35,973 bases of DNA, from IMG/VR virus record IMGVR_UViG_3300014890_000016, positions 1 to 35,973 of that record; one strand, given 5' to 3'. Positions 5,407-35,973 of the stretch are shown here, one piece after another (the first letter of the stretch is position 1; every line of letters starts with the position of its first letter). The translations under genes were made by a program, and so were the position numbers. The DNA is from a virus. Its lineage: Duplodnaviria > Heunggongvirae > Uroviricota > Caudoviricetes. The notes beneath the pieces were generated by a model, which did no database searches, had not been told where the DNA came from, and was given only the letters and a program-made list of their open reading frames with translations.

Positions 5407-5478
5407 TTCCTGTTCCGGGCCTTTCCTGCACCTTGCGGCGGGAGGCCTTCGCACATCTGTAACAAGAGGATTGCCGCA

Positions 5479-21457: not shown

Positions 21458-23553
21458 TGTCACAACAGCGCCTTGAATTACTTCTTGAACTGACAGACCG
21501 CCTGACAAGGCCGTTGCGCGCAGCCGGGCGACAGGTTCAGGGATTTGCTGCAACAAGTCGGGGGGCTTTTCGGGACATTGCTACCGGAGGCGCTGCACTC
21601 TGGGGAGTGGGTGCAGCCATTCAGGGTGCACTGATGCCAGCCATTGAAATGGACAGAGCGCTCGGTGAGGTGAAATCACTGGGCGTCGCAGAGTCCGGAT
21701 TGCGTAAACTCAGCCGCGCCGCTGTTGATTTCACTATGGAATACGGCGGAGCTGCGCAGGATTTTGTGCGTGCTTCTTACGACATCCAGTCAGCCATTGC
21801 CGGATTAACTGACGATGAGCTGTCACGCTTCACCACTGCATCAGCAACAGTGGCAGCAGCAACCAAATCCAGCAGCCAGACCATTACCGCCTACATGGGC
21901 ACCATGTACGGCATCTTTAAAGACCAGGCTGATGCCATAGGAAAAAGTAAATGGGTGGAGCAGATCGCCGGACAAACCGCCACTGCCGTGCAAATGTTTA
22001 AAACAACCGGCGATAACATGTCAGCGGCATTCACCACACTGGGTGCCAGTGCAAAAGCAGCCGGTATTGATGCGGCCGAGCAGTTCGCCGTACTGGGGCA
22101 ACTGCAGGCAACCATGAGTGGCAGCGAGGCTGGTACAAAATATAAATCCTTCCTGGCATCCGTTGGTAAAGCACAGAAAAAGCTGGGGCTTAATTTCGTG
22201 AATAAAGACGGCACGATGAAAAGTGTTGTCGAGATCATGAAACTTATCAGGGGCAAATTTGGTGATCTGTCAAAAGTGGCTGACTCTGATTTGCTGAAAA
22301 GCGCCTTTGGCTCCGATGAGGCTGTGGCCATGATTAAATTGCTCAATGCAGACATTGGCGGACTGGAAAAGAACATCGCCACGCTGGGCAATATCAAAGG
22401 TATGGATAAGGCTGTCGAAATGGCACAAGCCATGGCCGATCCGTGGGAACAGGCCGCTGCGATTATTAACGGCATTCGCATTGAAATTGGCACACAACTG
22501 TTACCCGTTCTGTATCCATTCATCCAGAAAAGCAACGAAGGCGGTAAATCCTTTGTTGCCTGGTTGCGTCTGTATCCAAACATCACACGTGCAATCGGCT
22601 TATTAAGCGCGGCACTTATTGGTGTTGCGGCGGTTGGCGCAACGGTCAATATCGTAATGGGGGTGGCGAAATTTATCTGGGTGGGATTACGCATGGTCTG
22701 GATGGCCGCAATCGCACCACTGAAATTAATCATCTTTCTGTATCGTGCCCTGAAAGTGGTTATGCTGGCGTTCTGTGCTACTGCCCGCATGGTCAGGGCA
22801 TTATATCTGGCGATGAGTATCGCCATGGGGGCGCACAATGTCAGGGCCAAAATTCAGATTGCACTGCTGAAACTGCAACGCATCGGTATGTGGCTTTATT
22901 CTGCCGCACTGGGCGCTGCAGCTGTGGCCATGAATATTTACACCGCTGTTACCGGTGGCGCAGCCGTTGCCACTCAGCTACTTTTCAGCCCGATAACGTT
23001 AATCATCCTGGCACTGGCTGCGCTGGGCGTGGGCATTTATTTTCTGATTACCCGCTGGGATGAGATCAAAGCGGCACTGATGGATACAGCCGCTTTTCAG
23101 TGGGTAACCAGTGTCATAAAAAATATAGCTGTATGGTTCGGCAATACCTGGAAAGGCATTAAAAGCGGCTGGGATGCCGTTATTAATTATTTTTCCACCC
23201 GCTCACCGCTGGAAATATTTCAGGATTATGTCCGTCTGATTAATAAATTATTTTCAGGACTATGGCGCACAATTATCGGTATGTTCAGCTCAGCATTCAG
23301 ATGGATCGCTGACAAGCTGAATATGCTCCCGGGTATAAATATTGATGTACCAGAAATTACAGATAACAGTGAGGGTTCTGTATTAACCGGTGGAAAAGTC
23401 ATTAGCGCCGGGCCAGGTGGCATTGCGGCAAAAATGCAAAATAACAGCGACAGCCAGACCACAATTGATAACTCCCGTCGCGTGGTCAATGTCAATGTGC
23501 AGGATGCATCCCCGGCCCACCTTAATGAATGGATGGAGCTGCATGCATACTGA
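21457..23553 (+). CDS. T: Tail tape measure protein
   Basis: 698 aa; Ala/Gly-rich coiled-coil N-terminal half and hydrophobic segments in the C-terminal half; follows the chaperone pair. Confidence 0.8.
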   Translation: MSQQRLELLLELTDRLTRPLRAAGRQVQGFAATSRGAFRDIATGGAALWGVGAAIQGALMPAIEMDRALGEVKSLGVAESGLRKLSRAAVDFTMEYGGAAQDFVRASYDIQSAIAGLTDDELSRFTTASATVAAATKSSSQTITAYMGTMYGIFKDQADAIGKSKWVEQIAGQTATAVQMFKTTGDNMSAAFTTLGASAKAAGIDAAEQFAVLGQLQATMSGSEAGTKYKSFLASVGKAQKKLGLNFVNKDGTMKSVVEIMKLIRGKFGDLSKVADSDLLKSAFGSDEAVAMIKLLNADIGGLEKNIATLGNIKGMDKAVEMAQAMADPWEQAAAIINGIRIEIGTQLLPVLYPFIQKSNEGGKSFVAWLRLYPNITRAIGLLSAALIGVAAVGATVNIVMGVAKFIWVGLRMVWMAAIAPLKLIIFLYRALKVVMLAFCATARMVRALYLAMSIAMGAHNVRAKIQIALLKLQRIGMWLYSAALGAAAVAMNIYTAVTGGAAVATQLLFSPITLIILALAALGVGIYFLITRWDEIKAALMDTAAFQWVTSVIKNIAVWFGNTWKGIKSGWDAVINYFSTRSPLEIFQDYVRLINKLFSGLWRTIIGMFSSAFRWIADKLNMLPGINIDVPEITDNSEGSVLTGGKVISAGPGGIAAKMQNNSDSQTTIDNSRRVVNVNVQDASPAHLNEWMELHAY

Positions 23554-23893
23554 TAAACCGCTTTACATTGATTTGCTTATCACCGGTCGCAATTTCACGC
23601 TGAACAGCGCCGCCGAACCGGTGCTGTGCAACAACAGGGAAAGCATTGCCCAGGACTGCCAGCATGCCATCATTGAAAGCGGACTGGCAACGCGCCTGCT
23701 GGCTGAAAAAAGCCCGACGCTTCGCGCCGACATTATGATGCAGATGACACTGCTGATTGAAGATGATGAGCGCATCACACCCGGCACGGTCAGTGTGACA
23801 GAGGAAACCCCGCTTTCTGGCCGCCTGCTGATTAGCGCCCACACCGAAGATTTTTTTGATCCCCTGACTTTTACGGTATCTCTTGATGATTAA
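23543..23893 (+). CDS. Putative baseplate protein, gpW / Mu gp46 position
   Basis: 116 aa, overlaps the tape measure stop and precedes the J-like gene. Assigned by size and position. Confidence 0.4.
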   Translation: MHTDKPLYIDLLITGRNFTLNSAAEPVLCNNRESIAQDCQHAIIESGLATRLLAEKSPTLRADIMMQMTLLIEDDERITPGTVSVTEETPLSGRLLISAHTEDFFDPLTFTVSLDD

Positions 23894-25070
23894 CGGCAAA
23901 CCAACCGCAGATTACGAGCGCATTCTGGCTGATAACGGCATGCCGGTAACCGAAGAACAGGCGCGTGCTGAATTTGAGGCCATCGTTAAAGACGAAGGGC
24001 TTATCACTAACACATCCCGCATGTCGCCGTTCTGGCGGTTGATTACAGCCATCACCACAAAGCCCGTGATGTGGCTGAAAGATGCGCTGGTTAATGTGGT
24101 AATGAAAAACCTGTTTCTGGCAAGTGCCAGCGGTGTATTTGTGGATGTTTTTGCATGGGCGGTAAACCTGCAGCGCAAGGCTGCCACGCACGCAGCTGGC
24201 GTGATTCGTTTCACAAAAGACGACATTGATCACGCGGTCACCGTACCGGCTGGTACGCAGATTCAGACAGAACGCATTAACGGCGTGATTTATACGCTGA
24301 CCGTTGTCAGGGATACCATTATTCCGGCAGGAATACTCAGCATGAACATCGATGTTTCTGCTGAACAGGCCGGAGCCGGGTTTAACCTCGCGCCGGGGTA
24401 TTACCGCATTCTTCCGGTGGCGATTAATGGTATCGCCGGCGTTGAGAACGACGAAAACTGGCTGACCACGCCGGGGGCCAACGAAGAAAGCGACGACGAA
24501 CTGCGTGATCGCGTTCGCAATCAGTTTAATCTTGCCGGTGCTTATCACACCGACGCTGTTTACCGGGGATTAATTGCCGGTGTTGCCGGCATCAGTGCCG
24601 ACCGCATCTATTTTTTGCATGACGCACCACGCGGCCCCGGCACAGCAAACGCTTACATTCTGCTGGATACCGGCATCGCATCCGGACCGTTCGTTGATGC
24701 AGTAAACGCATTTATTAACGATGAAGGTCATCACGGACACGGCGATGATTTGCGCTGTTTTTCCATGCCTGAAACGCGCCATGCCCTGACCGTGACACTC
24801 TGGCTGTATGCAACACTGAACCTCAACGCTGAAGAGATACAGGCTTTATTACGCAACGTAGAGAATCTGGTCCGCTGTGCGTTTCGCGAAAACAGCGATT
24901 ATGACGTTCAGAAAACATGGCCGTACAGCCGTTTCAGCATGTCCCGACTGGGCGAAGAGATCCACCAGGTATTTCCACAGGTGGAATCGGTCACGTTTTC
25001 CCTTCCGGATATTCTCAGCGACCTGGCTGTACCTCGCCTGGAATCCCTTATCGTGGAGGTGGGATCATGA
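23886..25070 (+). CDS. J: Baseplate J-like protein
   Basis: 394 aa; position before the I-like gene and the tail fibre. Confidence 0.6.
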   Translation: MINGKPTADYERILADNGMPVTEEQARAEFEAIVKDEGLITNTSRMSPFWRLITAITTKPVMWLKDALVNVVMKNLFLASASGVFVDVFAWAVNLQRKAATHAAGVIRFTKDDIDHAVTVPAGTQIQTERINGVIYTLTVVRDTIIPAGILSMNIDVSAEQAGAGFNLAPGYYRILPVAINGIAGVENDENWLTTPGANEESDDELRDRVRNQFNLAGAYHTDAVYRGLIAGVAGISADRIYFLHDAPRGPGTANAYILLDTGIASGPFVDAVNAFINDEGHHGHGDDLRCFSMPETRHALTVTLWLYATLNLNAEEIQALLRNVENLVRCAFRENSDYDVQKTWPYSRFSMSRLGEEIHQVFPQVESVTFSLPDILSDLAVPRLESLIVEVGS

Positions 25071-25702
25071 ATATTCCGGAGATGCCCGAATTCCCTCTCC
25101 CAACCTGGATGAACAAAGGAGAGCCATTAACACTGGCACATTCTTCACGTCGTTACTGGGAGAAGGTCTACAGTTGGCTGACATGGCCACTACAGCAAAT
25201 TGATGTTGATACCTGCGCAGAGCCCCTGCTTAATCTGCTGGCCTATCAGCGCAACATCACCCGCTTCAGTGGGGAGCCAGTTTCATTATTTCGCCTAAGG
25301 GTAAAACACGCGTTTATCAACGCTCAGGACTCGGGCGAACGCGCAGGCTTCGAACGCATCTTTAAGCGTCTTGGCGTGGGAGAGGTAAAAACTCTGGAAC
25401 GACAGCTGCAGCATGACTGGGACGTTATCTTACTGCGTATCAATGACACCCAGTTAAGCGAAAGCAATGCCCTGATGATGCAGCTCGTGCGCCAGTATGG
25501 CCGTACATGTAGACGTTATTTCTTTCAGGTGATTAATACAACCACCGCTCACCTGACAGCCGGCACATTTAGCGGTGATTACCGGTATTACGTGGCAAAA
25601 GCGACGATACGTCCAGGCACAATCAGATTAAACGCATCATTACAGGCAGGGCATTACGGATTATCCGTGGAGCATTACACATTACAGGCAGGTAACGCAT
25701 GA
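25067..25702 (+). CDS. I: Tail protein I-like
   Basis: 211 aa; ATGA-coupled to J and immediately upstream of the tail fibre gene as in P2. Confidence 0.5.
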   Translation: MNIPEMPEFPLPTWMNKGEPLTLAHSSRRYWEKVYSWLTWPLQQIDVDTCAEPLLNLLAYQRNITRFSGEPVSLFRLRVKHAFINAQDSGERAGFERIFKRLGVGEVKTLERQLQHDWDVILLRINDTQLSESNALMMQLVRQYGRTCRRYFFQVINTTTAHLTAGTFSGDYRYYVAKATIRPGTIRLNASLQAGHYGLSVEHYTLQAGNA

Positions 25703-27564
25703 GCACAATCATTACTGAACAATATGAAAACTGGTGCGCAGATCAGATTATCAGCGATAAACCCGCACGCCCGGACATGTTTGTTTTTGCGTATATCCCG
25801 GGACAGGATGAGTCTGCCGAAATTCCCCGTGACGAGGCTTTGCCCGATGAATCCATGATTCAGTACCGCGCGCCGGTCACTCAGTATGGACTACTGTCCC
25901 CGAATGCTGCCGCATTTTCCATTATTCTGGACACCACTATCGGTGACTTCGAATATAACTGGATTGGCCTCATGAACGAAGAAAGCGGCGTGCTCTGCAT
26001 GATTGCACACACACCGCGCCAGCAAAAAATTAAAACAGCAAACGGCGTGCAGGGAAATAACCTTATTCGCACCTTTGCCATGGAGTTTGACGGTGCGGCT
26101 GCGGCAATGCATATCGATGTCAGTGCTGATGTCTGGCAGATTGATTTTACTGCCCGACTCGCGGGAATGGATGAATCACGTCGCCTGTTGGCATTTGATC
26201 ACTACGGAGAAGCCGCTTTTCTGGGGGGCGGTTTTCAGGTCAGTTATCAGGACGGTACCGCCACTGTTGCCGCCGGCGTGGGTTATGTGGGGGGGCTGCG
26301 CGTCAGTCTGCGCGAACCTTACAGCCTGCCGGCTGCGGTCGGGGATACTCTCTGGATTGATGCAAGCTGGCAGGGATTTGTTACCGGCGAATGGAATACC
26401 GTTTTTACGTTCTGCGCCCGCAGGGAACATGCGTCCTATACAGACGGTAACGGCTTCCGACACTTTGTCGCGCCACTTGCAAAAATGACAGCAGACGGCC
26501 CACAGGACCTGCGCCCGGAGACACCCGACGAGGAACAAAGCAATGCACTGGCAGAGCACGAAAAATCCCGCAGACACCCGGATGCCACGCTGAACGAGAA
26601 AGGCTTTGCGCAGTACAGCAACGACACCGACAGCGACGCAGAGGACCGCGCCGCCACATCAAAGGCAGTAAAAGCCGTAATGGATAAGGCAAAAGGCGCT
26701 GTTGAGCGTGCCGGTGATACCATGACCGGCGAGCTGAAAATCCGTGGTGTTAATGCGCTGCGAATTTTCAACAAAGCCTTTGGTCTGATTTTTCGCCGTT
26801 CGGAAGAGTGCCTGCACCTTATCCCTACCAGTGAAGGTCAGGGCGAGAATGGCGATATTGGCCCCCTGCGTCCGTTCACCATTAATCTGCGGACGGGTGA
26901 AATATCCATGTCGCATAAAGTGTCTGTTGGCGGTGGCTCTCAGGTGAATGGTGCGCTGGGTATCGGTGTTCAGAACGCACTGGGCGGTAACTCAATTGCT
27001 CTCGGGGATAGCGATACAGGTATAAAACAAAACGGCGACGGCATTCTGGATGTTTATGCGAATGGACAGCATGTATTTCGTTTCCAGAATGGTGTGGCGA
27101 TAGCGTTAAAAAATATTCAGGCCGGAAATGCTAAAAAATTCACGTTATCCAGCGCCAACAACTCAACGAAAAACGCAACGTTTAATTTATGGGGCAATTC
27201 GTCCCGTCCTGTGGTTGCAGAGCTTGGTGATGATTCCGGCTGGCATTTTTACAGCCAGAGAAATACGGATAACAGCATAACGTTTGCTGTAAACGGTCAG
27301 ATGGTTCCATCAGACTACAGAAATTTTGATGCCCGCTACCAGACAAAGACAGGTGGCGTGCAGAATTTTCAGTACACCAGTGAGGTGTTTTATAACCCTG
27401 GTGGGAATGAGCGCAGCTGGACGTTTCGGGCACCTTCTGGTTGTGTTTTATCAGGCATTAATGTTCAGGACACTGGCAGTAACTCTGCAGATAATATCGG
27501 TGGCGTGTATTACAAGCAGGCTCAGATTTATATTAATGGTGCATGGCGATCCGTATCAGGTTAA
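25699..27564 (+). CDS. H: Tail fibre protein, P2 gpH-like C-terminal part
   Basis: 621 aa; AEHEKSRRHPDATLNEKGFAQYS and NALGGNSIALGDSDTGIKQNGDGILDVYANGQHVFRFQNGVAIALKNIQAG...WHFYSQRNTDNS match P2 gpH closely. Confidence 0.85.
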   Translation: MSTIITEQYENWCADQIISDKPARPDMFVFAYIPGQDESAEIPRDEALPDESMIQYRAPVTQYGLLSPNAAAFSIILDTTIGDFEYNWIGLMNEESGVLCMIAHTPRQQKIKTANGVQGNNLIRTFAMEFDGAAAAMHIDVSADVWQIDFTARLAGMDESRRLLAFDHYGEAAFLGGGFQVSYQDGTATVAAGVGYVGGLRVSLREPYSLPAAVGDTLWIDASWQGFVTGEWNTVFTFCARREHASYTDGNGFRHFVAPLAKMTADGPQDLRPETPDEEQSNALAEHEKSRRHPDATLNEKGFAQYSNDTDSDAEDRAATSKAVKAVMDKAKGAVERAGDTMTGELKIRGVNALRIFNKAFGLIFRRSEECLHLIPTSEGQGENGDIGPLRPFTINLRTGEISMSHKVSVGGGSQVNGALGIGVQNALGGNSIALGDSDTGIKQNGDGILDVYANGQHVFRFQNGVAIALKNIQAGNAKKFTLSSANNSTKNATFNLWGNSSRPVVAELGDDSGWHFYSQRNTDNSITFAVNGQMVPSDYRNFDARYQTKTGGVQNFQYTSEVFYNPGGNERSWTFRAPSGCVLSGINVQDTGSNSADNIGGVYYKQAQIYINGAWRSVSG

Positions 27565-27577
27565 TTAAGGAGAAATA

Positions 27578-28120
27578 ATGGAACTCGTAAACGTTACGCG
27601 TTACTACCCTGAAGACATGCCTTATGGTGAAGGCATTCAGTATTTCCGTAGTGAAGACGGGCAGGATTTTTATGAATCACTGGATAAATTCACGAAGAAA
27701 TACAAGCTGTGCACACATCCTGAAACCGGCGTTATTTATTCCATGGCGGAAGATGTATCCCGCCTTTATCCCGTTGGTTTTACCATTGTGGAAGTGGATG
27801 AACTACCGGAAGGATTTTGTATAGAAGCGCGCTGGTATTATAAAGACGGTGAAGTACTGCCGGTCCCTGTTGACTACCGGCAGCAGGCAGAGTCGGAGCG
27901 TGCGCGCCTGACAGTGATTGCCGAACGGGAAATATCCGATAAGAAGACAGATTTACTTCTGGGGATCATCAGCGATGAAGAAAAAGAAAAACTGACAGCC
28001 TGGCGCATTTACGCGAAATCGCTGCAGGCGATGGATTTCAGCCAGATTACCGATAAATCATCGTATGCCACAATTGCATGGCCGGAATTACCGCAGGATA
28101 TTAACGAGAATAAAAAATAA
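27578..28120 (+). CDS. G: Tail fibre assembly chaperone, gpG/Tfa family
   Basis: 180 aa; C-terminal SDEEKEKLTAWRIYAKSLQAMDFSQ...IAWPELP matches the Tfa consensus. Confidence 0.8.
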   Translation: MELVNVTRYYPEDMPYGEGIQYFRSEDGQDFYESLDKFTKKYKLCTHPETGVIYSMAEDVSRLYPVGFTIVEVDELPEGFCIEARWYYKDGEVLPVPVDYRQQAESERARLTVIAEREISDKKTDLLLGIISDEEKEKLTAWRIYAKSLQAMDFSQITDKSSYATIAWPELPQDINENKK

Positions 28121-29172
28121 TGAGCGCGCTGTTGACGAAAGCATTTGAGAAATGGGTTGCTGAATGCGCCGCCAGTAATTTACCGGCGCGACCTGACTCC
28201 ATTGTTTTTGCACTGATGGAAAGGGAACCATCCAGAGATGATGAAGTTGTCCCCCCTGAAAAAATCACACACACGGTAAATAATCTGCGCTATGGAAAAC
28301 TGGATCCAAACAGCATTGTCTGTAGTGCCGTTGTTGCTGATAACGAGACATTCACTTACGACTGGATTTGCCTGGTCCATCAACCCAGCAACACACTCTG
28401 CGGCGTAATTAAAACCCCGGTTCGCCACAAACTGACCGGCGAAACACTTATCCGCAATTTTGCTGTTATTTATAGTGGACTGGCCCAGGCGGCACACATC
28501 ACTGTACCTCCGGAAAGCTGGCAATTGGATCTTTTTCCTGAATTAAACAAAAAAGCACCATTGCACAGCCCCTCACTCACCGGGGAACCAACTACGCCAA
28601 CTCCTCCCGAGGATGCCGCAGATACCGAAATAGCAAATGCGAAATTTGTCCGCAAGCTACTTAAAGAAATGAGCGATTCTTTATCTGCCCCTTCTGTTTC
28701 GGGTGATCCCAAAAATTTACTGAAAACACAATCTGGCGCTTTATTTGTTGATGGCGCTCACCCGATCATCCCCAAAATGCTCGTAAGCACCATGAACTCC
28801 AATCTGGATTCATTTAAAAGCCTGCCCGATGGTTCGCGTGTTTATACCCTGAAGCTGGATGTATCAAACCCCATCGGGCAATCCTCAGTTGGCGGTATCG
28901 GAATCGCTGTTTCAGCGATGATTGAGCCGCGTTATCTCTATCAGAACCAGAACCGACAGTACATTCCTGCGCAGTATTTTGTCGGCTCTGTCTCTGCAAA
29001 TACGCGAACAATCACTATCGGAATACAGGTGGTGATGCCTGATAAACCTTACTATGCACTGGATATGTCAACACTGAAAGATATTGCCGGCGCAGATGAT
29101 GGGCCGCTCCCCTGTGTTGTGGTTATAAAAACACTAGCAGGGACAACGTTGCGTCAGAACGGAATGGGATAA
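28120..29172 (+). CDS. Second tail-fibre-like protein (shared N-terminal domain, distinct C-terminus)
   Basis: 350 aa; N-terminal ~150 aa align with the H N-terminus (PARPD..VFA, LIRNFA, SWQLD); contains KKAPLHSPSLTGEPTTPTPPED...TEIANAKFV, similar to the P2 gpH collar motif. Confidence 0.55.
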   Translation: MSALLTKAFEKWVAECAASNLPARPDSIVFALMEREPSRDDEVVPPEKITHTVNNLRYGKLDPNSIVCSAVVADNETFTYDWICLVHQPSNTLCGVIKTPVRHKLTGETLIRNFAVIYSGLAQAAHITVPPESWQLDLFPELNKKAPLHSPSLTGEPTTPTPPEDAADTEIANAKFVRKLLKEMSDSLSAPSVSGDPKNLLKTQSGALFVDGAHPIIPKMLVSTMNSNLDSFKSLPDGSRVYTLKLDVSNPIGQSSVGGIGIAVSAMIEPRYLYQNQNRQYIPAQYFVGSVSANTRTITIGIQVVMPDKPYYALDMSTLKDIAGADDGPLPCVVVIKTLAGTTLRQNGMG

Positions 29173-29196
29173 CATTTGAACGTACAGGAAAATGAG

Positions 29197-29919
29197 ATGA
29201 AATATTCTGTATGGGAGCACGCCATTCTGCGTCCGGCTCCGATAGCCATCACCTGTTCAGTGGTTTGCCTCCACCCATGGTCAGAAAATACGGGAAACAT
29301 TACACCATCAGGGCGTTACCTCAGCCCGGATAATGCTGTATCCGCGCTTTTACCTTATCTGACAGAAAACACTGAAAAAGACGTTGTGGCGCTGTTATTT
29401 TGCGCTCCGTCTGCTGGCGAGTTTTTATCACTGGCCAGACAGTTTTCGGGTGCACTTCCATTGGCGGAAGTGGGAAGAATGTCCCGCATGATCTCCAGTC
29501 AGCTTTCGCTGGCCGTGAGTAAAATGCAGCTCCCTGCAAAACCGGCAACCACACTTCCTGCAGAAGTCACGCTGTCCACACAAACCACCCGCAGCATGAC
29601 GCGGGCAGCGACTATTGCGCGGGCTGCGATCCCGACCGCTGTATCTCCGGAAACATTATCCTCGTCTCTGAATCAGTTCAGAATCGCGAGAGATAAGGCA
29701 CTACAGGAAATCACCGACCAGCAGGCCGCAATTCAGAAAAACGCGTGTCCGGTGTGGCGTTTTTTTTATACGGGCACACTAAATCAGGTTGCAGCACTGA
29801 TAAAAAAAAATATTCCACATCCGGAATGGGTTTTTACAGCTGTGATGCTGTTTGTCGGTAATGATCTTTCATCACTAAGAGAATCACTACATGACCCAGA
29901 TGATCGTTCTTGCACTTGA
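29197..29919 (+). CDS. Hypothetical protein downstream of the second fibre gene
   Basis: 240-aa ORF with AGGAA Shine-Dalgarno; Ala/Ser/Thr-rich centre; no Tfa signature. Confidence 0.4.
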   Translation: MKYSVWEHAILRPAPIAITCSVVCLHPWSENTGNITPSGRYLSPDNAVSALLPYLTENTEKDVVALLFCAPSAGEFLSLARQFSGALPLAEVGRMSRMISSQLSLAVSKMQLPAKPATTLPAEVTLSTQTTRSMTRAATIARAAIPTAVSPETLSSSLNQFRIARDKALQEITDQQAAIQKNACPVWRFFYTGTLNQVAALIKKNIPHPEWVFTAVMLFVGNDLSSLRESLHDPDDRSCT

Positions 29920-30466
29920 CGGAGAAGCCATTCTGTTACGCAACATAACCGTCAGCGCCACCATGCAACTACCGGATAAAGATATGTCCGGACAGTCAAC
30001 CAGCACCACCAGTGCCCAGCAGGGAAACAAGGCCAAGGAGCTACGCGTGTCGGGTGTTATTGATTTTAACGATGAAGCCATTCTGACCCGTATTTTTCAG
30101 CTTGCAGAAGCTACAGAAAGCAATGGGGCTAAAAAAACATACCGCATCGCCAACGCTACTGCTAAAGCGATTAATATGCGACAGGGTGTTTTTTCCGGCG
30201 GCATTGATGCCACGGAGCAGCAAGGCAAGATGCACTGGCAGGTCACCTTTACTCTCAGGGAAAAATTAAGCGTGCCGGAAAAAGCATCGGCACGCAGTGG
30301 CTCACAGAAAACAATTGCAAAACAGCAGACGCAGAACGGCAGCGAACAGGCGCCAGACAAAGGGATGAATACCCAGGATGCGTTCTGGAAAAATATCAAT
30401 GATGGTATTGGCTCCGGGCTGGACTGGATTGGCATCGGGAGCGTGAAAGAGGAAGGGAAAACATGA
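29891..30466 (+). CDS. Putative tail protein (gpU position)
   Basis: 191 aa directly upstream of and ATGA-coupled to the gpD-like hub gene. By position only. Confidence 0.35.
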   Translation: MTQMIVLALDGEAILLRNITVSATMQLPDKDMSGQSTSTTSAQQGNKAKELRVSGVIDFNDEAILTRIFQLAEATESNGAKKTYRIANATAKAINMRQGVFSGGIDATEQQGKMHWQVTFTLREKLSVPEKASARSGSQKTIAKQQTQNGSEQAPDKGMNTQDAFWKNINDGIGSGLDWIGIGSVKEEGKT

Positions 30467-32160
30467 AATTAACCCAGCGCTGTATGATTAATGGTGAGCT
30501 GGCGGAAATTGCCGATATCAGCCTTGTTCTTACCCTGAATGCTGCCGGGCGCGGCTTCATTTCTGTTAATAATCTGCCCCCCCAAAAAAGCCTTGCCGGC
30601 GCAATGATACAAATTGATCTCGGCCGTAATGGTGAGGCATGGCGCTATTTCTCCGGCTACATTGAGCGCGATCAACCCGCCGAAAATGGCTCACGCCGCC
30701 TTTTTATCCGTGAAGCAGCTGCCGTGCTGGATTTTGATTTCCCCTGCTCCATGCAACATCCAACGTTACGGGATGTACTCGATAATCTGGGTAAACAAAG
30801 CGGCATCGTTTTCATCACGCCAGATGCGGATTACGTCAGCACACCGACACCTTACATCACCCACAGCGGCAGCGGAGCACAACTGCTCAGCCAGTTGGGG
30901 CGAGCATTCAGTATCAGCGATTACGTCTGGCATCCAATGCCGGACGGTTCCGTATTTGTGGGAAGCGCACCGGATTCACGGTTTGCCAGTATTACCATGC
31001 CGGATATTCCGCAACAATACACACTCGGGCAAAGCGGCGGAAACAGCATCGACATCATGTTTATGGAAACTGTGCGACCGGGCGTGAACCTTCCGGCCGG
31101 GCGCATTACCCGTGTAGCCCTCAACAACGAGAAAATGACCCTGACATGGGAACGCCTTACCGCCACGGGTAGCCCTGTTTCCAAATCACCATTACGCAGA
31201 CAGATGGAAACACAGTTCCCGGAACTGGCCAGCGGCACTCTGCATACCCGGCTGGCGCGCGTCATTGCGCCAACGGAATCTGTCACCCTGGGCGATATTG
31301 CCGACAGCTTCCGCCCACGCTACGCCGTCGATGTGCAACTGCTTGATGAGAATGGCAACGATAAAAGCGATACGCCTGTTTATCCGGCTGTACCACTCCC
31401 CGTCCCGATGGCTGGTAGCGAGGCGGGATGTTTTGCCTACCCGCCAGCAGGCACCATCGTGGAAATATCCAACATTGAAGGGCGACCGGATAAACCTGTC
31501 ATCAGGCAAATCTTACCCGCGGGCCATAACCTGCCTGATGTAAAGCCCGGCGAACAGCTGCAGCAACAGCGCGCAGAGGTGTTTCAGCGCGTCACGACTG
31601 ACGGAAGCTGGTACAGAGAAACTGACCAGCAAATCAGGGAGCATTCAGCCAGGCGAACCATTAACAGCGATCAGGAAGAACGCACAACAACAACCAGAAC
31701 AACAACAGTCCAGGCAAACGACATAACCAGTGTTCTTGGTACCAGTAAGCTGATGACAGGCCAGACAGAACACCTTACTACCGGCAATTATGCGATCGCA
31801 GCCGGTGAGCATATCCAGATGGTAGCGCAGAATTTGCTGACTCAACTCAAAGGGGCGATATCCACTATTGAGCATGACCTCACCGAAAACGTGGGAGGCC
31901 GCAGAACATGCAGGGCAGACAGCGGTCTGGAATTTACCGCCCCGACAGTATTTATTGGTCGCGGCGGCTCGCGGGAAAAGTCCGGACTTAACCTGCTGAC
32001 GTTGCTGATCGATATTCTGGACCTGGTTCAGTTGCTGGCCACACATACAGCAAACCACACCCATAGCAACACTGGCACGCCAATGAACAGCAGCGAATTT
32101 GCAGCAGATGCCCTGCAGGCGACGAGCCTGCGCGAAAAATACGGCGACATTATCGCCTGA
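30463..32160 (+). CDS. D: Baseplate hub protein, gpD-like, with C-terminal extension
   Basis: 565 aa; N-terminal region resembles the late-control-D family pattern; C-terminal LLATHTANHTHSNTGTP is His-rich; last gene of the late operon, followed by a terminator. Confidence 0.5.
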   Translation: MKLTQRCMINGELAEIADISLVLTLNAAGRGFISVNNLPPQKSLAGAMIQIDLGRNGEAWRYFSGYIERDQPAENGSRRLFIREAAAVLDFDFPCSMQHPTLRDVLDNLGKQSGIVFITPDADYVSTPTPYITHSGSGAQLLSQLGRAFSISDYVWHPMPDGSVFVGSAPDSRFASITMPDIPQQYTLGQSGGNSIDIMFMETVRPGVNLPAGRITRVALNNEKMTLTWERLTATGSPVSKSPLRRQMETQFPELASGTLHTRLARVIAPTESVTLGDIADSFRPRYAVDVQLLDENGNDKSDTPVYPAVPLPVPMAGSEAGCFAYPPAGTIVEISNIEGRPDKPVIRQILPAGHNLPDVKPGEQLQQQRAEVFQRVTTDGSWYRETDQQIREHSARRTINSDQEERTTTTRTTTVQANDITSVLGTSKLMTGQTEHLTTGNYAIAAGEHIQMVAQNLLTQLKGAISTIEHDLTENVGGRRTCRADSGLEFTAPTVFIGRGGSREKSGLNLLTLLIDILDLVQLLATHTANHTHSNTGTPMNSSEFAADALQATSLREKYGDIIA

Positions 32161-32200
32161 ACACCAGACATAAAAGCCACATAAACGCCCCATCACGCAA

Positions 32201-32226
32201 CGCACGGTCCCGGCCGTGCGTTTTCC
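32201..32226 (+). terminator. Rho-independent terminator ending the late operon
   Basis: CGCACGG-loop-CCGTGCG hairpin followed by TTTT. Confidence 0.5.
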
Positions 32227-32702
32227 TATCCACCACCTGATTAATGCGTTCTGCGTGCCATTCTGGCGCTGTATGCACACACCGCGTAAACGGTGTGACG
32301 TAAAGCGTGAGGTGACGTAAACCGCGCTACCCCCTCCAACCCGCGGGTTTCGTGTCGAAACAGTTTTTCAGTTTTCTGCCGTGCAAAAATGACCGCCAGC
32401 CCGCGCAGTAACTAAGGGAAAAGCGAAGATCTGAAATTTCACGCCGGGAAATTTTTTGCAGTTTTCAGAGAGATTTTTACGATCCCATAAATGGCAGGAG
32501 AAATAAAACAGTATGATATTAAAAGAATTTTCATGCTTTACGCGAGACGAAAAACGATCACGAAAGGATCGCATCAAACAACCATCAAACAAAGAAGCCA
32601 GACGCGGCGCGGACTGCGTAAAATCAAGAGCCAGAATCAAACTGAAAAAAGGATCAATTCCGTGCTCTGATCGCACATGACGATCTACGCAGTAACAGGA
32701 CG

Positions 32703-32728
32703 AAAAAAACCGGCGCGAACGCCGGCGG
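32703..32728 (-). terminator. Rho-independent terminator for a leftward transcript
   Basis: On the minus strand CCGCCGGCG-TTCG-CGCCGG followed by seven T; no minus-strand CDS ends here, so it would terminate a short RNA. Confidence 0.45.
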
Positions 32729-32806
32729 AAGCGTGTATCAAATACGTAATTGGGTAATGTCTAAGGTCGGGAATTTTACATCAGAAAACTGACAAGTCTC
32801 AACGGA

Positions 32807-32836
32807 TTGAAACAAGGGAAAAAACCAGGCTAGAAT
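32807..32836 (+). promoter_or_regulatory. Candidate sigma70 promoter upstream of the hok-like ORF
   Basis: TTGAAA, 18-bp spacer, TAGAAT; about 150 nt upstream of the toxin start codon. Confidence 0.35.
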
Positions 32837-32988
32837 TCGCACGGGTGCCTTTCGGCTGATGGCTGGAGGGAATACCCGAAGGCCGGATGTGGAAAGGCCC
32901 CGGAAAACATTTTTGTTTAACCGAGGCCCTAACCATCTACCCTAGACAAGTGATAGGTTAGCGCCTCCCTGAAAAAGGAGCAAGCGCT

Positions 32989-33129
32989 ATGTCGCAAAAA
33001 TCGCTTACGGCCATTACGTTCTGCGTAACGGCAATCCTCATCATCTGGATGCTGCACGGTTCACTGTGTGAAATACGGATGAGCTTCTGGGGAGCGGAGT
33101 TTGCGGCGTTCTTACAGTGTAAGCAGTAA
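32989..33129 (+). CDS. hok: Hok/Gef-family type I toxin peptide (46 aa)
   Basis: MSQKSLTAITFCVTAILIIWMLHGSLCEIRMSFWGAEFAAFLQCKQ: one TM helix then the SLCEIR motif and an AAFL.CK C-terminus as in HokA/PndA; GGAG Shine-Dalgarno. Below the ORF-track cutoff. Confidence 0.7.
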   Translation: MSQKSLTAITFCVTAILIIWMLHGSLCEIRMSFWGAEFAAFLQCKQ

Positions 33130-33214
33130 GGAAACCGCGACGGGGGAGCAATCCCCCGTCAATCGGTTGCCAGGGTAAGGTCGATAAGGCACCCTATCTC
33201 GCAAACCTGAATGC

Positions 33215-33246
33215 AAAAAGCCCGCAGGATTAATCGCGGGCTTTTT
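33215..33246. terminator. Bidirectional Rho-independent terminator
   Basis: AAAAA-GCCCGC-loop-GCGGGC-TTTTT; ends the hok transcript and the convergent minus-strand gene. Confidence 0.55.
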
Positions 33247-33275
33247 ATTTCCAGAGAGGGTGGTTGGCTTACCGA

Positions 33276-33713
33276 TTATTCTTCATTTTCCTTTGACGTT
33301 ATTACCACAGTAGCCAGTTTATCAATCAGGCGCTCACACGCATCAACATCTTTGAGGTTTCTTAATTTGAGCTTTGCAGTTTTAGGCTCATCATCTCTGG
33401 TACAAAGGTGTAGCTCAACTTCAACATCATTCCTGTTTAACAACCCCATAATAACCCCTGCAAATTTTTTCGCCCGTGAGAGCAATTCGAACATAACACT
33501 AAGCATATCGGGTGCATTCGCAGAGAAGCAAGTCACGCGACCTATATCAAATCCATTATTTTGAAAATACTCCTCTATTGAAGAGGAAAGCTCTGAAGGG
33601 CATGTAATCCTGACACTTGCAAATCGGGACTGATGTAATGGTGTTCCCTTTAAATATTGCACTTGAAGCCTCCGCATTAAAACTACAGCACAAGTGAGGC
33701 CAAACAGCCCCAT
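33276..33713 (-). CDS. Hypothetical protein
   Basis: About 145-aa ORF divergent from com; start uncertain (TTG 33719, ATG 33713 or ATG 33677); no family recognised. Confidence 0.45.
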   Translation of the reverse strand: MGLFGLTCAVVLMRRLQVQYLKGTPLHQSRFASVRITCPSELSSSIEEYFQNNGFDIGRVTCFSANAPDMLSVMFELLSRAKKFAGVIMGLLNRNDVEVELHLCTRDDEPKTAKLKLRNLKDVDACERLIDKLATVVITSKENEE

Positions 33714-33732
33714 GAACAAAATAGAAAACGCA

Positions 33733-33766
33733 GATCGATAATATAAAACCGATCGATAAAATCGAT
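33733..33766. promoter_or_regulatory. Three ATCGAT palindromes, two containing GATC, in a divergent promoter region
   Basis: ATCGAT at 33733, 33752 and 33761 between the leftward ORF and the com-methylase operon. Confidence 0.35.
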
Positions 33767-33814
33767 CAATTTGTTATCATACCGGCAGCAGTAACCACAT
33801 AAGAGGTGCCGCAA

Positions 33815-34012
33815 ATGACGCAAAATGTACGATGCAAAAATTGCAACAAACTACTTGCCCGCGCCTCATTTCACTACATTGAAATAAAATGTCCGCGCTG
33901 CAAAACACTTAACCAGATAACGAGAGCCATTGAGCACCCCACACACATGAGGAGCTATGACCGTGGGGATCGCAATCCAGCACCAACCAGCACATACACC
34001 GGAACACACTAA
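33815..34012 (+). CDS. com: Com-like zinc-finger translational regulator
   Basis: MTQNVRCKNCNKLLARASFHYIEIKCPRCKTL matches Mu Com (MKSIRCKNCNKLLFKADSFDHIEIRCPRCKRH); AAGAGG Shine-Dalgarno; 3' end overlaps the methylase gene as com overlaps mom in Mu. Confidence 0.7.
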   Translation: MTQNVRCKNCNKLLARASFHYIEIKCPRCKTLNQITRAIEHPTHMRSYDRGDRNPAPTSTYTGTH

Positions 34013-34748
34013 GGTTTATCAGACTGACAATGCCACGCTCTGTCGTGGGAATGCGCTGGAAATATTGCCGCTGATTGAGCCAGAAAGCATTGACGCCTTA
34101 ATCACTGATCCGCCTTACAGTTCGGGCGCGACACATAAGGCCGGACGCACCAACCATGGTAGCCATGCAAAATATCTGAACGGCGAGAGCCTTCACCGCT
34201 TTGATGGGTTCGCGGGTGAAAACATGGACGCCCGTTCGTGGGCTTACTGGACACAATTATGGATGGCACAGGCACACCGCGCAGTCAGGCCGGGCGGTTA
34301 TGCCCTGGTATTTACTGACTGGCGACAACTACCAGCTTTAACCGATGCGTTTCAGGCCAGTGGTTTTACATGGCGCGGCATCATTGCGTGGAACAAGGGG
34401 AGGGGGTCACGAACACCACATACCGGATATTTCCGGCATCAGTGCGAATACATCGTCTGGGGCAGCAAAGGCCATTTAGATAAATCGCCTTCGGGGCCGT
34501 TCGACGGCTGCATGACGTTCCCGGTTATCCCGTCAAAGAAAATGCACCCGACCGGAAAACCAGAAGAACTAATGGCAGAACTGGTCAGGACTGTGAATAG
34601 CGGCGGAACAGTCCTTGATCCTTTTATGGGGTCAGGGACAACGGGTGTGGCTGCACTTAAAGCAGGACGCAAATTTATTGGTATAGAAACCAGTGATCAT
34701 TATTTTGATGTAGCAACACAACGGCTCAAAACGGCGATCGAACCATAA
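33957..34748 (+). CDS. DNA methyltransferase, N6-adenine/N4-cytosine class
   Basis: 263 aa; catalytic DPPY (ALITDPPYSSG) precedes the SAM-binding FMGSGTTG motif; target base not determinable from sequence. Confidence 0.85.
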   Translation: MTVGIAIQHQPAHTPEHTKVYQTDNATLCRGNALEILPLIEPESIDALITDPPYSSGATHKAGRTNHGSHAKYLNGESLHRFDGFAGENMDARSWAYWTQLWMAQAHRAVRPGGYALVFTDWRQLPALTDAFQASGFTWRGIIAWNKGRGSRTPHTGYFRHQCEYIVWGSKGHLDKSPSGPFDGCMTFPVIPSKKMHPTGKPEELMAELVRTVNSGGTVLDPFMGSGTTGVAALKAGRKFIGIETSDHYFDVATQRLKTAIEP

Positions 34749-34792
34749 GACAAAGCCCGCAATGTTGCGGGCTTACTCTACCTCTCGAAAAT

Positions 34793-34815
34793 GTGGTCAC
34801 TGTGTGGACATACGC
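34793..34815. repeat. Putative attR core, imperfect copy of the int-end repeat
   Basis: GTGGTCACTGTGTGGACATACGC versus 11..35; about 21 of 23 positions match, then a 2-nt indel before TACGC; lies between the methylase terminator hairpin and the flk-like gene. Confidence 0.4.
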
Positions 34816-34977
34816 TGATACAAATCCTTTTATATCAATAAATTAAATCTTTGTTTTTTTCATCAACAAGGATTTTCACGTTTGTGTTACCTGTATGAGA
34901 CGAGAGTTAACCGGACAAGTGTGCCATAATCTCGCGGCCAGGCATACTTGCGAAGATTTCAGGTATAAGGATACGTA

Positions 34978-35973
34978 ATGATACAACCTATTTCCGGCCC
35001 TCCTCCTGGGCAACCACCAGGTCAGGGAGATAACCTGCCGTCTGGCGCGGGCAATCAGCCTTTATCCAGTCAGCAACGTACTTCGCTGGAAAGCTTAATG
35101 ACGAAAGTGACCTCACTGACGCAACAACAAAGAGCAGAACTGTGGGCGGGTATCAGGCACGATATTGGTCTGTCGGGAGATTCACCGCTGCTTTCGCGTC
35201 ACTTTCCTGCCGCTGAGCATAATCTGGCGCAACGTCTGCTGGCCGCGCAAAAAAGCCATTCTGCCCGCCAGCTTTTAGCGCAATTAGGGGAGTATTTACG
35301 TCTGGGGAATAATCGTCAGGCGGTCACGGATTATATCCGTCATAACTTTGGTCAGACGCCGCTGAATCAGCTCTCACCGGAGCAATTAAAAACCATTCTA
35401 ACCCTGTTGCAGGAAGGGAAGATGGTTATTCCGCAACCTCAGCAGCGCGAGGCGACCGACCGTCCGTTATTACCGGCGGAGCACAATGCGCTCAAACAGC
35501 TGGTGACCAAACTTGCGGCGGCAACGGGAGAACCCAGCAAGCAGATCTGGCAATCGATGCTGGAACTTTCCGGGGTGAAAGATGGCGAGTTAATTCCAGC
35601 GAAACTGTTTAACCATCTGGTGACCTGGCTACAGGCGCGTCAGACGCTAAGCCAGCAAAATACGCCGACGCTTGAATCACTCCAGATGGCGCTAAAACAA
35701 CCTTTAGATGCCAGTGAACTGGCGGCGTTATCGGCATATATCCAGCAGAAATATGGCCTTTCTGCGCAATCATCGCTTTCTTCTGCCCAGGCCGAGGATA
35801 TTCTTAATCAGCTTTATCAACGGCGGGTTAAAGGGATTGATCCGCGAGATATACAACCGCTGCTTAATCCTTTTCCACCGATGATGGACACGTTGCAAAA
35901 TATGGCAACGCGTCCCGCGCTGTGGTTACTGTTAGTCGCGATTATCCTGATGCTGGTCTGGCTGGTTCGTTAA
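34978..35973 (+). CDS. flk: Flk-like flagellar regulator with C-terminal membrane anchor (chromosomal)
   Basis: 331 aa; Pro/Gln-rich N-terminus MIQPISGPPPGQPPGQ and hydrophobic tail ALWLLLVAIILMLVWLVR, as recalled for enterobacterial Flk. Confidence 0.55.
   Translation: MIQPISGPPPGQPPGQGDNLPSGAGNQPLSSQQRTSLESLMTKVTSLTQQQRAELWAGIRHDIGLSGDSPLLSRHFPAAEHNLAQRLLAAQKSHSARQLLAQLGEYLRLGNNRQAVTDYIRHNFGQTPLNQLSPEQLKTILTLLQEGKMVIPQPQQREATDRPLLPAEHNALKQLVTKLAAATGEPSKQIWQSMLELSGVKDGELIPAKLFNHLVTWLQARQTLSQQNTPTLESLQMALKQPLDASELAALSAYIQQKYGLSAQSSLSSAQAEDILNQLYQRRVKGIDPRDIQPLLNPFPPMMDTLQNMATRPALWLLLVAIILMLVWLVR

What the first reader, a model, noticed from the sequence alone, without database searches (positions are those of the whole stretch)
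25699..29919. Two tandem tail-fibre genes sharing an N-terminal domain, plus an unknown partner gene
The gpH-like fibre and its Tfa chaperone are followed by a second 350-aa protein whose first ~150 residues align with the first fibre and which carries a P2 gpH collar-like motif, but has an unrelated C-terminus and no Tfa-type chaperone. The next 240-aa ORF has no recognisable family. The pair could be a second receptor-binding fibre set, a remnant of a Mu G-segment-type alternative fibre system without an invertase, or cargo at the position of the P2 Z/fun hotspot.
Basis: partly seen in the sequence, partly recalled or inferred. Interest (0 to 1): 0.6.

Follow-up and report, generated by a model that had tools for sequence, protein, structure and literature searches.

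The report
Second tail fibre in HP1-like prophage
An apparently intact HP1-type prophage of E. coli carries an extra, short receptor-binding tail-fibre gene between its normal fibre/chaperone pair and a conserved tail gene (HP1 orf33), which probably widens host recognition and is shared by the whole prophage lineage rather than being an oddity.

Summary
Fibre 1 (25699-27564) and the 350-aa protein (28120-29172) share a tail-collar N-domain (36% identity, E=2e-25). The second protein has a P2 gpH-type joint motif, an unrelated C-terminus and no Tfa gene after it.

The tail module follows HP1 gene order (orf27-orf35), not P2 order. The "unknown partner" (29197-29919) is the orthologue of HP1 orf33. 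That gene is also present in single-fibre HP1-like phages, so it is neither a fibre-2 partner nor cargo.

Fibre 2 is an extra gene between orf32 (Tfa) and orf33:
- Its N-anchor is an old paralogue, 25-36% identical to all fibre-1-type anchors.
- Its distal part is a swappable cassette. The same 210-aa C-terminus sits on a lambda-Stf-type N-terminus in a Mu-like prophage.
- It is under purifying selection (dN/dS 0.12-0.23) and its start overlaps the Tfa stop codon.

About 49 of 5426 complete E. coli genomes carry the two-fibre layout. I found no inverted repeats beyond chance, no invertase and no defence-family hits.

Verdict: an ordinary second receptor-binding fibre, a new member of a known kind. 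How two fibre types dock on a minimal baseplate, and what orf33 does, remain open.

The parts
23543..23893 (+). DUF2590 protein (HP1 orf28 equivalent; inferred gpW/gp25-like sheath initiator)
   Evidence: PF10761 1.1e-35. The start is inferred from 116-aa homologues in L002 and L010.
23883..25070 (+). Baseplate J/gp47-like wedge protein (HP1 orf29 equivalent)
   Evidence: PF04865 1.2e-31 and phrog_6.
25067..25702 (+). gpI-like tail protein (HP1 orf30 equivalent)
   Evidence: PF09684 1.3e-4 and phrog_1228 6e-81. The 211-aa length comes from homologues.
25699..27564 (+). Fibre 1: primary tail fibre, orthologue of HP1 orf31
   Evidence: PF12571, PF03406 and Gp34_trimer. The N-domain is 45-50% identical to the SW3 and YenM_324 fibres, 40% to HP1 orf31, and 93% to the fibre 1 N-domains of the three E. 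coli relatives compared. N-domain dN/dS is 0.04.
27578..28120 (+). Tfa-type tail-fibre assembly chaperone (HP1 orf32 equivalent), cognate to fibre 1
   Evidence: PF02413 1.5e-22 and phrog_136 1.9e-54. Its stop codon TAA overlaps the fibre 2 ATG (TAATG).
28120..29172 (+). Fibre 2: extra 350-aa receptor-binding fibre (whole gene)
   Evidence: It is 99% identical to E. coli protein P0001 and 87% to P0002, both also 350 aa.
28120..28545 (+). Fibre 2 N-terminal tail-collar anchor domain (aa 1-142)
   Evidence: PF12571 4.7e-09. It is 64-81% identical among fibre 2 proteins and 25-36% identical to all fibre-1-type anchors. dN/dS is 0.12-0.15.
28531..28680 (+). gpH-type joint motif (aa 138-187, KAPLxSPxLTGxPTTPTPP...IANAxFV): boundary of the exchangeable distal cassette
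   Evidence: 50% identity to P2 gpH 244-293, E=8e-12. Eight tail-fibre PHROGs hit this stretch. The shared C-terminal module begins here in P0003, P0004, P0031 and P0038.
28765..29154 (+). Fibre 2 tip: predicted beta-sandwich, lectin-like receptor-binding domain (aa ~216-345)
29197..29919 (+). HP1 orf33 orthologue (240 aa): conserved core gene of the HP1-type tail operon, role unknown, inferred baseplate component or assembly factor
   Evidence: tblastn to HP1/HP2 orf33 and the ESSI-2, SW3 and YenM_324 homologues. Synteny is shown. phrog_1677 matches at 2.5e-38. The AF2 model has pLDDT 81.6 with no PDB or BFVD fold match. dN/dS is 0.15-0.18.
29891..30466 (+). HP1 orf34-type baseplate complex protein
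   Evidence: PF25759 1.9e-53. It overlaps the orf33 homologue by 29 nt.
30463..32160 (+). HP1 orf35-type baseplate protein (inferred VgrG-like hub/spike)
   Evidence: phrog_2258 1.2e-233. There are weak VgrG matches.

Best explanation
The window holds an apparently complete HP1-type (Peduoviridae) prophage. Its late tail operon runs in HP1 order: tape measure, orf28 (DUF2590), orf29 (J), orf30 (I), orf31 (fibre), orf32 (Tfa), orf33, orf34, orf35. One extra gene, fibre 2, lies between orf32 and orf33.

Fibre 2 is a second receptor-binding tail fibre.
- Its N-terminal tail-collar domain is an old paralogue of the primary fibre's baseplate anchor. It would dock a trimer on the J/I wedge (inferred).
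- A gpH-type joint motif marks the point where distal modules are exchanged by recombination (shown by mosaicism).
- Its C-terminal ~130-residue beta-sandwich would bind a surface glycan such as LPS or O-antigen (inferred from fold resemblance).
- It is made from the same late transcript as the other tail genes, with its start codon overlapping the Tfa stop codon. This follows from the sequence layout.
- The expected effect is a broader or alternative host range.

The 240-aa ORF downstream is not its partner. It is the orf33 core gene of the HP1-type tail module, most likely a baseplate component or assembly factor. That role is inferred from position and conservation only.
For: HP1 gene order and families.

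Orthology of the 240-aa ORF to orf33, and its presence in single-fibre phages.

Fibre 2 anchor: PF12571 above the gathering score. It is 36% identical to fibre 1, E=2e-25. The identity matrix shows fibre 1 is the orthologue of the single fibre, and fibre 2 is a separate, older clade.

Modularity of fibre 2:
- 237 homologue clusters keep the N-terminal ~40-55% of the query at 72-77% identity. Their total lengths range from about 200 to 613 aa, and the shortest are partial sequences.
- The window's C-terminal 210 aa recur in P0003 and P0004 (518 and 522 aa), in P0038, and in P0031. P0031 has a lambda-Stf N-terminus (PF08400) and lies in a Mu-like prophage.

The slot between Tfa and orf33 varies:
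- fibre 2 alone (window, L005, L010);
- fibre 2 plus a 352-aa ORF (L002);
- fibre 2 plus DUF4376 (L004);
- fibre 2 plus DUF4376 and DUF1353 (Yersinia L015);
- a 522-aa protein with no Pfam hit plus DUF4376 and DUF1353 (E. coli L019);
- empty (Serratia L017, SW3, YenM_324, HP1).

Functional constraint: dN/dS is 0.12-0.23 for the fibre 2 N-domain, its C-domain and orf33.

Operon integration: the TAATG overlap, the Shine-Dalgarno sequence, the 29-nt and 4-nt overlaps, and no internal promoter or terminator.

Lineage-wide presence: the fibre 2 anchor is in 49, and orf33 in 48, of 5426 complete E. coli genomes.
Against: - No experimental evidence shows that fibre 2 is in virions.
- The window's copy is the shortest complete variant seen (350 aa). 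It lacks the ~170-aa middle module of P0003 and any adjacent chaperone. In a Mu-like prophage the same tip is followed by a short DUF4376 protein, so folding could depend on a factor missing here.
- Compared with single-fibre relatives, J, I, orf33, orf34 and orf35 show no size difference that would suggest an added docking domain. Where a second fibre set would attach is therefore unexplained.
Confidence: 0.7

Rival explanations
1. Fibre 2 uses the same baseplate site as fibre 1. The two compete during assembly, giving mixed or alternative virions (bet-hedging) rather than particles with two complete fibre sets.
For: Both fibres carry the same PF12571 anchor family. No extra docking domain is apparent in J, I or orf33-35 when compared with single-fibre relatives.
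Against: The two anchors are only 25-36% identical. They have been kept as separate clades across E. coli, Salmonella and Yersinia prophages, and the fibre 2 anchor has two loop deletions. This pattern fits distinct docking surfaces better than a shared one.
Confidence: 0.2
2. Fibre 2 in this window is a decaying or non-functional deletion derivative of a longer fibre cassette. It would have lost a middle module, a DUF4376 chaperone and DUF1353, and it contributes nothing to the virion.
For: It is the shortest complete variant seen. Relatives have proteins of 404-861 aa, with or without DUF4376 and DUF1353. Degraded copies do exist, namely L001, L003 and the IS1-truncated P0038.
Against: - The ORF is intact and its start overlaps the Tfa stop.
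- The same 350-aa architecture is kept in P0001 (99% identical) and P0002 (87% identical), which together represent 20 member sequences.
- dN/dS is 0.12-0.23 on both halves.
- The short junction 'PELNKKAPL' is also present in the L002 fibre 2.
- The same tip has no adjacent chaperone in five HP1-like loci: the window and L010-L013.
Confidence: 0.1
3. The 240-aa ORF is a dedicated chaperone or adaptor for fibre 2, so that the pair forms a functional unit.
For: It lies immediately downstream of fibre 2. It evolves about as fast as the fibre 2 anchor, at 75-80% amino-acid identity against 97% for orf34. One distant homologue, P0247, has the orf33 domain fused behind a repeat-rich N-terminal region.
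Against: Orthologues occupy the same position in phages and prophages that have no second fibre: HP1, HP2, SW3, SI7, ESSI-2, YenM_324 and Serratia L017. Where fibre 2 has a recognisable chaperone it is a DUF4376 protein, not orf33. The ORF overlaps orf34 by 29 nt. It has no similarity to Tfa families.
Confidence: 0.07
4. The two fibres are a remnant of a Mu/P1-type invertible alternative-fibre (G/C segment) system that has lost its invertase.
For: There are two alternative distal fibre specificities in one phage. The gpH/S-type joint motif that is shared with the fibre proteins of such systems is present.
Against: - Both genes are on the same strand, and each has a complete N-domain and its own start codon.
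- There is no shared constant segment.
- The best inverted repeats are 14-34 nt at 70-93% complementarity and do not flank the genes.
- No serine recombinase was found among the ORFs scanned. The only recombinase found is a tyrosine integrase.
- The two anchors are ancient paralogues.
Confidence: 0.02
5. Fibre 2 and the 240-aa ORF are non-structural cargo (a moron or defence system) at a position equivalent to P2 Z/fun.
For: The insertion point is just after the fibre chaperone, as with Z/fun in P2. The slot is variable between relatives.
Against: - There are no PADLOC hits.
- Both genes are on the operon strand with no promoter or terminator of their own. P2 fun(Z), in contrast, is on the opposite strand and follows a terminator.
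- Fibre 2 has a fibre anchor, a fibre joint motif and a receptor-binding-type tip.
- The orf33 homologue is present in every HP1-like phage examined.
Confidence: 0.03

Closest known systems
Haemophilus phage HP1/HP2 tail module orf27-orf35 (Hpunavirus), and enterobacterial relatives ESSI-2, SW3/SI7 (Irrigatiovirus) and vB_YenM_324
   Same: Same gene order and families: tape measure, DUF2590, baseplate J, gpI-like, tail-collar fibre, Tfa, orf33, orf34 (PF25759), orf35. The sheath (DUF2586) and tube (HP1 Orf24) also match.
   Different: Those phages have one fibre gene. The window and its E. coli, Salmonella and Yersinia prophage lineage have an additional tail-collar fibre gene between Tfa and orf33.
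P2 gpH/gpG and R-type pyocin fibre PA0620 with chaperone PA0621
   Different: Fibre 2 is much shorter (350 aa) and has no adjacent Tfa-type chaperone. It is a second fibre alongside a gpH-like one. The surrounding module follows HP1 order, not P2 order.
Phages with two receptor-binding fibre or spike sets (for example Shigella phage Sf14 with two long tail fibres, PMC11821841), and the Mu-like prophage L009 found here
   Same: Two co-oriented RBP genes sit in the tail operon and differ in their distal domains. L009 has fibre, Tfa, a second fibre with the same tip as the window's fibre 2, and DUF4376.
   Different: Here both fibres use paralogous copies of one anchor domain, on what should be a minimal P2/HP1-size baseplate. 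Incorporation of both fibres is untested.
Mu G-segment / P1 C-segment invertible fibre systems
   Same: Alternative distal fibre specificities and the shared gpH/S-type joint motif.
   Different: No invertase, no flanking inverted repeats, no opposite orientation and no shared constant part.

Membership tests
Phage tail-collar fibre proteins (PF12571 N-terminal anchor) | N-terminal ~150-aa tail-collar domain scoring above the Pfam gathering threshold | tested here: met
   Fibre 1 scores 97.7 bits and fibre 2 scores 36.8 bits, against a cutoff of 23. The two are 36% identical, E=2e-25.
Phage tail-collar fibre proteins (PF12571 N-terminal anchor) | Trimeric fibre physically attached to the baseplate wedge and present in virions | not testable with these tools
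   This needs virion proteomics or cryo-EM. Only monomer structure prediction was available.
Fibre plus Tfa (Caudo_TAP, PF02413) chaperone pair | A Tfa-type chaperone gene immediately downstream of the fibre gene | tested here: not met
   This holds for fibre 1 (27578-28120, 1.5e-22) but not for fibre 2. The ORF after fibre 2 has no PF02413 or DUF4376 match.
HP1 orf33 family (PHROG 1677) | Full-length sequence similarity to HP1/HP2 orf33 | tested here: met
   phrog_1677 2.5e-38. tblastn gives HP1 2e-10 and HP2 orf33 4e-9 at 91-95% coverage, and ESSI-2, SW3 and YenM_324 at 1e-19 to 1e-24.
HP1 orf33 family (PHROG 1677) | Conserved position between the fibre chaperone and orf34/orf35 | tested here: met
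   In the window it overlaps the PF25759 gene by 29 nt.
Mu G-segment-type invertible fibre switch | Serine invertase (Gin/Cin/Hin) adjacent to the fibre genes | tested here: not met
   Pfam scans of the main ORFs found only a tyrosine integrase at 1-1020. Not every small ORF was scanned.
Mu G-segment-type invertible fibre switch | Inverted crossover repeats flanking oppositely oriented alternative distal fibre genes | tested here: not met
   Only short, imperfect inverted repeats that do not flank the genes. All genes are on the + strand.
P2 Z/fun-type moron or anti-phage defence cargo | Own promoter and terminator or opposite orientation, together with a non-structural or defence family match | tested here: not met
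   No PADLOC hits. No promoter or terminator between 28120 and 29919 beyond chance. Same strand, with overlapping or closely spaced stop and start codons. P2 fun(Z) is on the opposite strand after a terminator.
H-type lectin / R-pyocin 'foot' receptor-binding tip | Beta-sandwich fold superposing on solved lectin-type fibre tips | tested here: inconclusive
   [not shown]

The most novel reading that the evidence does not exclude
Both fibre sets are mounted at once on a minimal HP1-type baseplate through two anciently diverged copies of the tail-collar anchor. That would require a second docking site that P2 and R-pyocin baseplates do not have. The site could be provided by the orf33-family protein, whose confident predicted fold has no relative among solved or predicted viral structures. 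No HP1-type tail has a solved structure.
Probability: 0.2. Interest if true: 0.55.

Novelty: new member of a known kind. Interest (0 to 1): 0.3.

Why it matters
Dual receptor-binding proteins are a known way for phages to widen or switch host range, so the principle is not new. The useful results are three.

1. An enterobacterial lineage of HP1-like prophages (about 1% of complete E. coli genomes, plus Salmonella and Yersinia) has a dedicated, highly exchangeable second-fibre slot. Its modules are shared with Mu-like and lambda-Stf-type fibres. This is relevant to host-range prediction and to engineering of phages and tailocins.
2. The 'unknown' gene is re-assigned to the conserved HP1 orf33 family. 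That removes a false lead of cargo or a fibre partner.
3. HP1-type baseplates remain structurally unsolved. They contain at least one conserved protein (orf33) with no detectable structural relative.

Tried and rejected
- Inverted-repeat and invertase search for a G-segment remnant: nothing beyond chance.
- Defence-system and NCBIfam scans of fibre 2, orf33 and neighbouring ORFs: no hits, apart from weak VgrG matches for orf35.
- PDB sequence searches with fibre 2, orf33 (single sequence and profile), orf34, orf35 and the sheath: no meaningful matches.
- Fold search of the orf33 model against BFVD: no hit with E below 1. The afdb50 library was unavailable.
- hhalign of the orf33 profile against P2 gpU: no similarity.
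- Search for domain fusions of orf33. P0245 is a deletion fusion with orf35. P0247 has an uncharacterised repeat-rich N-terminus. Neither has a Pfam domain.
- Literature searches for HP1 orf33/orf34, vB_YenM_324, and dual fibres in Peduoviridae: nothing specific.
- Megablast against the phage collection: only fibre 1 and Tfa segments match (Rac-SA53, phiP27). No phage record holds the fibre 2 tip.

Full report
**Observation.**
- Fibre 1 (25699-27564, 621 aa) carries the tail-collar N-domain PF12571 (8.6e-28), a PF03406 fibre repeat and a gp34-type trimerisation segment.
- 27578-28120 is a Tfa-type chaperone (PF02413, 1.5e-22).
- The 350-aa protein (28120-29172, fibre 2) has only PF12571 (36.8 bits against a cutoff of 23).
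- BLASTP aligns fibre 1 residues 1-154 with fibre 2 residues 1-142 at 36% identity, E=2e-25. Nothing aligns beyond that.
- The 'gpH collar-like motif' is real. Fibre 2 residues 138-187 are 50% identical to P2 gpH 244-293 (E=8e-12), and eight tail-fibre PHROGs hit the same stretch.
- The next ORF starts at ATG 29197, with AGGA 7 nt upstream. It has no Pfam, NCBIfam or PADLOC match.

**Context.** The window is an apparently complete prophage. Its genes, in order, are:
- tyrosine integrase, HTH-type (repressor-like) regulator, gpA replication protein;
- portal, terminase, GPO scaffold, P2-type capsid, head-completion protein;
- gpR, gpS, DUF2586 sheath, HP1-Orf24 tube;
- lysis genes, tape measure, baseplate, fibres;
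- Com and a DNA methylase, followed by what I take from memory to be the host gene flk.

These assignments come, except the lysis genes, which are assigned by the annotation of the E. coli relative L002.

The tail operon is not in P2 order. It matches HP1 orf27-orf35 gene for gene:
- tape measure, DUF2590, baseplate J, gpI-like;
- fibre (orf31), Tfa (orf32), orf33;
- orf34 (PF25759, 1.9e-53), orf35 (phrog 'baseplate protein', 1.2e-233, weak VgrG similarity).

**The 'unknown partner' is HP1 orf33.**
- tblastn of the 240-aa protein finds HP1 orf33 (2e-10) and HP2 orf33 (4e-9). It also finds the equivalent genes of Pasteurella F108, Cronobacter ESSI-2, Salmonella SW3/SI7, the Escherichia ESSI2_ev phages and Yersinia vB_YenM_324, where the gene is annotated 'structural protein'. 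All hits cover 85-95% of the query.
- It matches PHROG 1677 at 2.5e-38.
- In HP1, SW3 and YenM_324 it lies directly after the single fibre's Tfa gene and before orf34. A Serratia prophage has the same layout.
- It therefore predates fibre 2 and does not depend on it.
- In the window it overlaps orf34 by 29 nt, and its dN/dS is 0.15-0.18.
- A profile search of 1.84 billion representative proteins finds only 128 relatives. Most full-length ones are 210-310 aa.
- AlphaFold2 on a 31-sequence alignment gives a confident alpha/beta model (pLDDT 81.6, pTM 0.77).
- Its role is unknown. From its position, its overlap with orf34 and its conservation, I infer a baseplate component or assembly factor.
- No HP1-type tail protein tested (sheath, orf34) has a PDB sequence relative. 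The architecture therefore appears to be unsolved.

**Fibre 2 is an extra, old, modular fibre.** An identity matrix of N-domains gives two results.
- Fibre 1 is the orthologue of the single fibre of HP1-like phages. It is 45-50% identical to SW3 and YenM_324, 40% to HP1 orf31, and 93% to the fibre 1 N-domains of the three E. coli relatives compared.
- Fibre 2 anchors form their own group. They are 64-81% identical to each other and only 25-36% identical to every fibre-1-type anchor, with two loop deletions. This is not a recent tandem duplication.

A search of 5.8 billion proteins finds 237 clusters, mostly E. coli and Salmonella. They keep the N-terminal ~40-55% of the query at 72-77% identity, while total lengths range from about 200 to 613 aa; the shortest are partial sequences.

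The window's C-terminal 210 aa (from the gpH motif onward) recur at 56-68% identity in four other proteins:
- P0003 and P0004 (518 and 522 aa). These have the same anchor plus an extra ~170-aa middle module.
- P0038, an IS1-truncated copy.
- P0031, where the module is joined to a lambda-Stf-type N-terminus (PF08400, 9.6e-62).

P0031 lies in a Mu-like prophage that is itself arranged as fibre, Tfa, second fibre, DUF4376.

**The slot between Tfa and orf33 is a cassette site.** Its contents differ between relatives:
- fibre 2 alone (window 350 aa; L010 518 aa; L005 619 aa);
- fibre 2 of 285 aa plus a 352-aa ORF (L002);
- fibre 2 plus DUF4376 (L004);
- fibre 2 plus DUF4376 and DUF1353 (Yersinia L015, 861 aa, anchor 65% identical);
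- a 522-aa protein with no Pfam hit plus DUF4376 and DUF1353 (E. coli L019);
- nothing (Serratia L017, SW3, YenM_324, HP1).

Among 5426 complete E. coli genomes, the fibre 2 anchor is found in 49 and orf33 in 48. The two-fibre layout is therefore the rule for this E. coli lineage.

**Function of the tip.** AlphaFold2 was run on residues 135-350 with a 7-sequence alignment. The shaft is low-confidence, as expected for a monomer model of a trimeric fibre. Residues ~216-345 form a confident beta-sandwich with pLDDT about 85-90.

The R-pyocin foot is a lectin-fold receptor-binding domain, and the fibres bind core LPS (PMC6363177). These scores are modest. Glycan binding is an inference.

**Expression and constraint.**
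- The Tfa stop codon overlaps the fibre 2 start (TAATG).
- There is no promoter-like or terminator-like site beyond chance inside 28120-29919.
- dN/dS is 0.12-0.15 for the fibre 2 anchor and 0.21-0.23 for the C-terminal module. The comparison values are 0.04 for the fibre 1 anchor and 0.02 for orf34.
- The 350-aa form is kept in P0001 (99% identical) and P0002 (87% identical).
- The short junction is also seen in the L002 fibre 2.
- Together these points argue against a decaying remnant.

**Rejected readings.**
- Mu G-segment remnant. The genes are co-oriented, each fibre has its own anchor and start codon, the inverted repeats are short and at chance level, and no serine invertase was found.
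- Z/fun-type cargo. The genes are on the same strand with overlapping or closely spaced stop and start codons, there are no defence hits, and orf33 is in every HP1-like phage examined. P2 fun(Z), in contrast, is on the opposite strand behind a terminator.
- orf33 as a fibre 2 chaperone. Orthologues exist without fibre 2, and where a cognate chaperone is recognisable it is a DUF4376 protein.

**Open points.**
- Virion incorporation of fibre 2 is untested.
- The same tip has no adjacent chaperone in five HP1-like loci (the window and L010-L013). In the Mu-like locus it is followed by a 100-aa DUF4376 protein. Whether it folds alone or borrows the upstream Tfa is unknown.
- J, I, orf33, orf34 and orf35 are of similar size in one-fibre and two-fibre phages. 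The docking site of a second fibre set is unexplained. The two anchors may compete for one site, or use distinct surfaces.

**Verdict.** This is a genuine but ordinary second receptor-binding fibre in an HP1-like prophage lineage. The 'partner' gene is re-assigned to the conserved orf33 family. Novelty: new member of a known kind. Interest: 0.3.

Noticed in passing
[not shown]
   Followed up: partly
window 8750-9709 (+): A full-length ParM/StbA actin-like plasmid-segregation protein (PF06406 1.3e-81, PF21523 2.7e-68) lies inside an integrated P2/HP1-type prophage, next to the gpA replication gene. This hints at a plasmid-like maintenance option.
   Followed up: no
window 4922-5119 (+), overlapping ORF 4865-5482: Rfam finds isrK (70 bits) and C4 antisense RNA (77 bits) above gathering score. 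They overlap an Ash-family ORF. This looks like a P1/P7-type c4/ant immunity module in an HP1-like prophage.
   Followed up: no
window 32160-34970: The region downstream of orf35 holds a 46-aa Hok/Gef-like ORF at 32989-33129 (50% identical to the annotated Hok of L002, E=3.7e-13), an unknown 147-aa ORF on the minus strand (33276-33719, no family), and a Com zinc-ribbon gene plus an N6/N4 DNA methylase (33806-34748). The prophage appears to end just beyond the methylase gene, because the complete ORF at 34978-35973 looks like the host gene flk. That identification is from memory of the sequence and was not tested.
   Followed up: partly
L009:3221-7073 (Logan SRR7429435 contig): A Mu-like prophage (gp45/gp46/J/gp48 baseplate) also has a two-fibre layout: a 402-aa protein, Tfa, a 576-aa fibre and a DUF4376 protein. 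The second fibre joins a lambda-Stf N-terminus (PF08400) to the same tip as the window's fibre 2.
   Followed up: partly
L015:1930-5511 (Yersinia enterocolitica) and L019:3243-5795 (E. coli): In these relatives the second-fibre slot also holds a DUF4376 chaperone-like gene and a DUF1353 gene before orf33. The Yersinia fibre 2 (861 aa) contains three tandem copies of the gpH-type joint motif.
   Followed up: partly
L001:7899-13559 (E. coli CP131_Sichuan) and L012:1-1934: These are degraded copies of the same module. One is an IS1-flanked remnant that retains only fibre 1 to orf35, with a 'shikimate transporter' fragment inside fibre 2. The other is an IS1-truncated fibre 2 (P0038). Protein P0245 is a deletion fusion of the orf33 N-terminus to the orf35 C-terminus.
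   Followed up: no
window 30463-32160 (+): The orf35-type 565-aa baseplate protein has only a weak, local VgrG-like match (residues ~312-368). One RefSeq genome nevertheless annotates its homologue as a 'type VI secretion system Vgr family protein'. It is probably a fused hub/spike.
   Followed up: no
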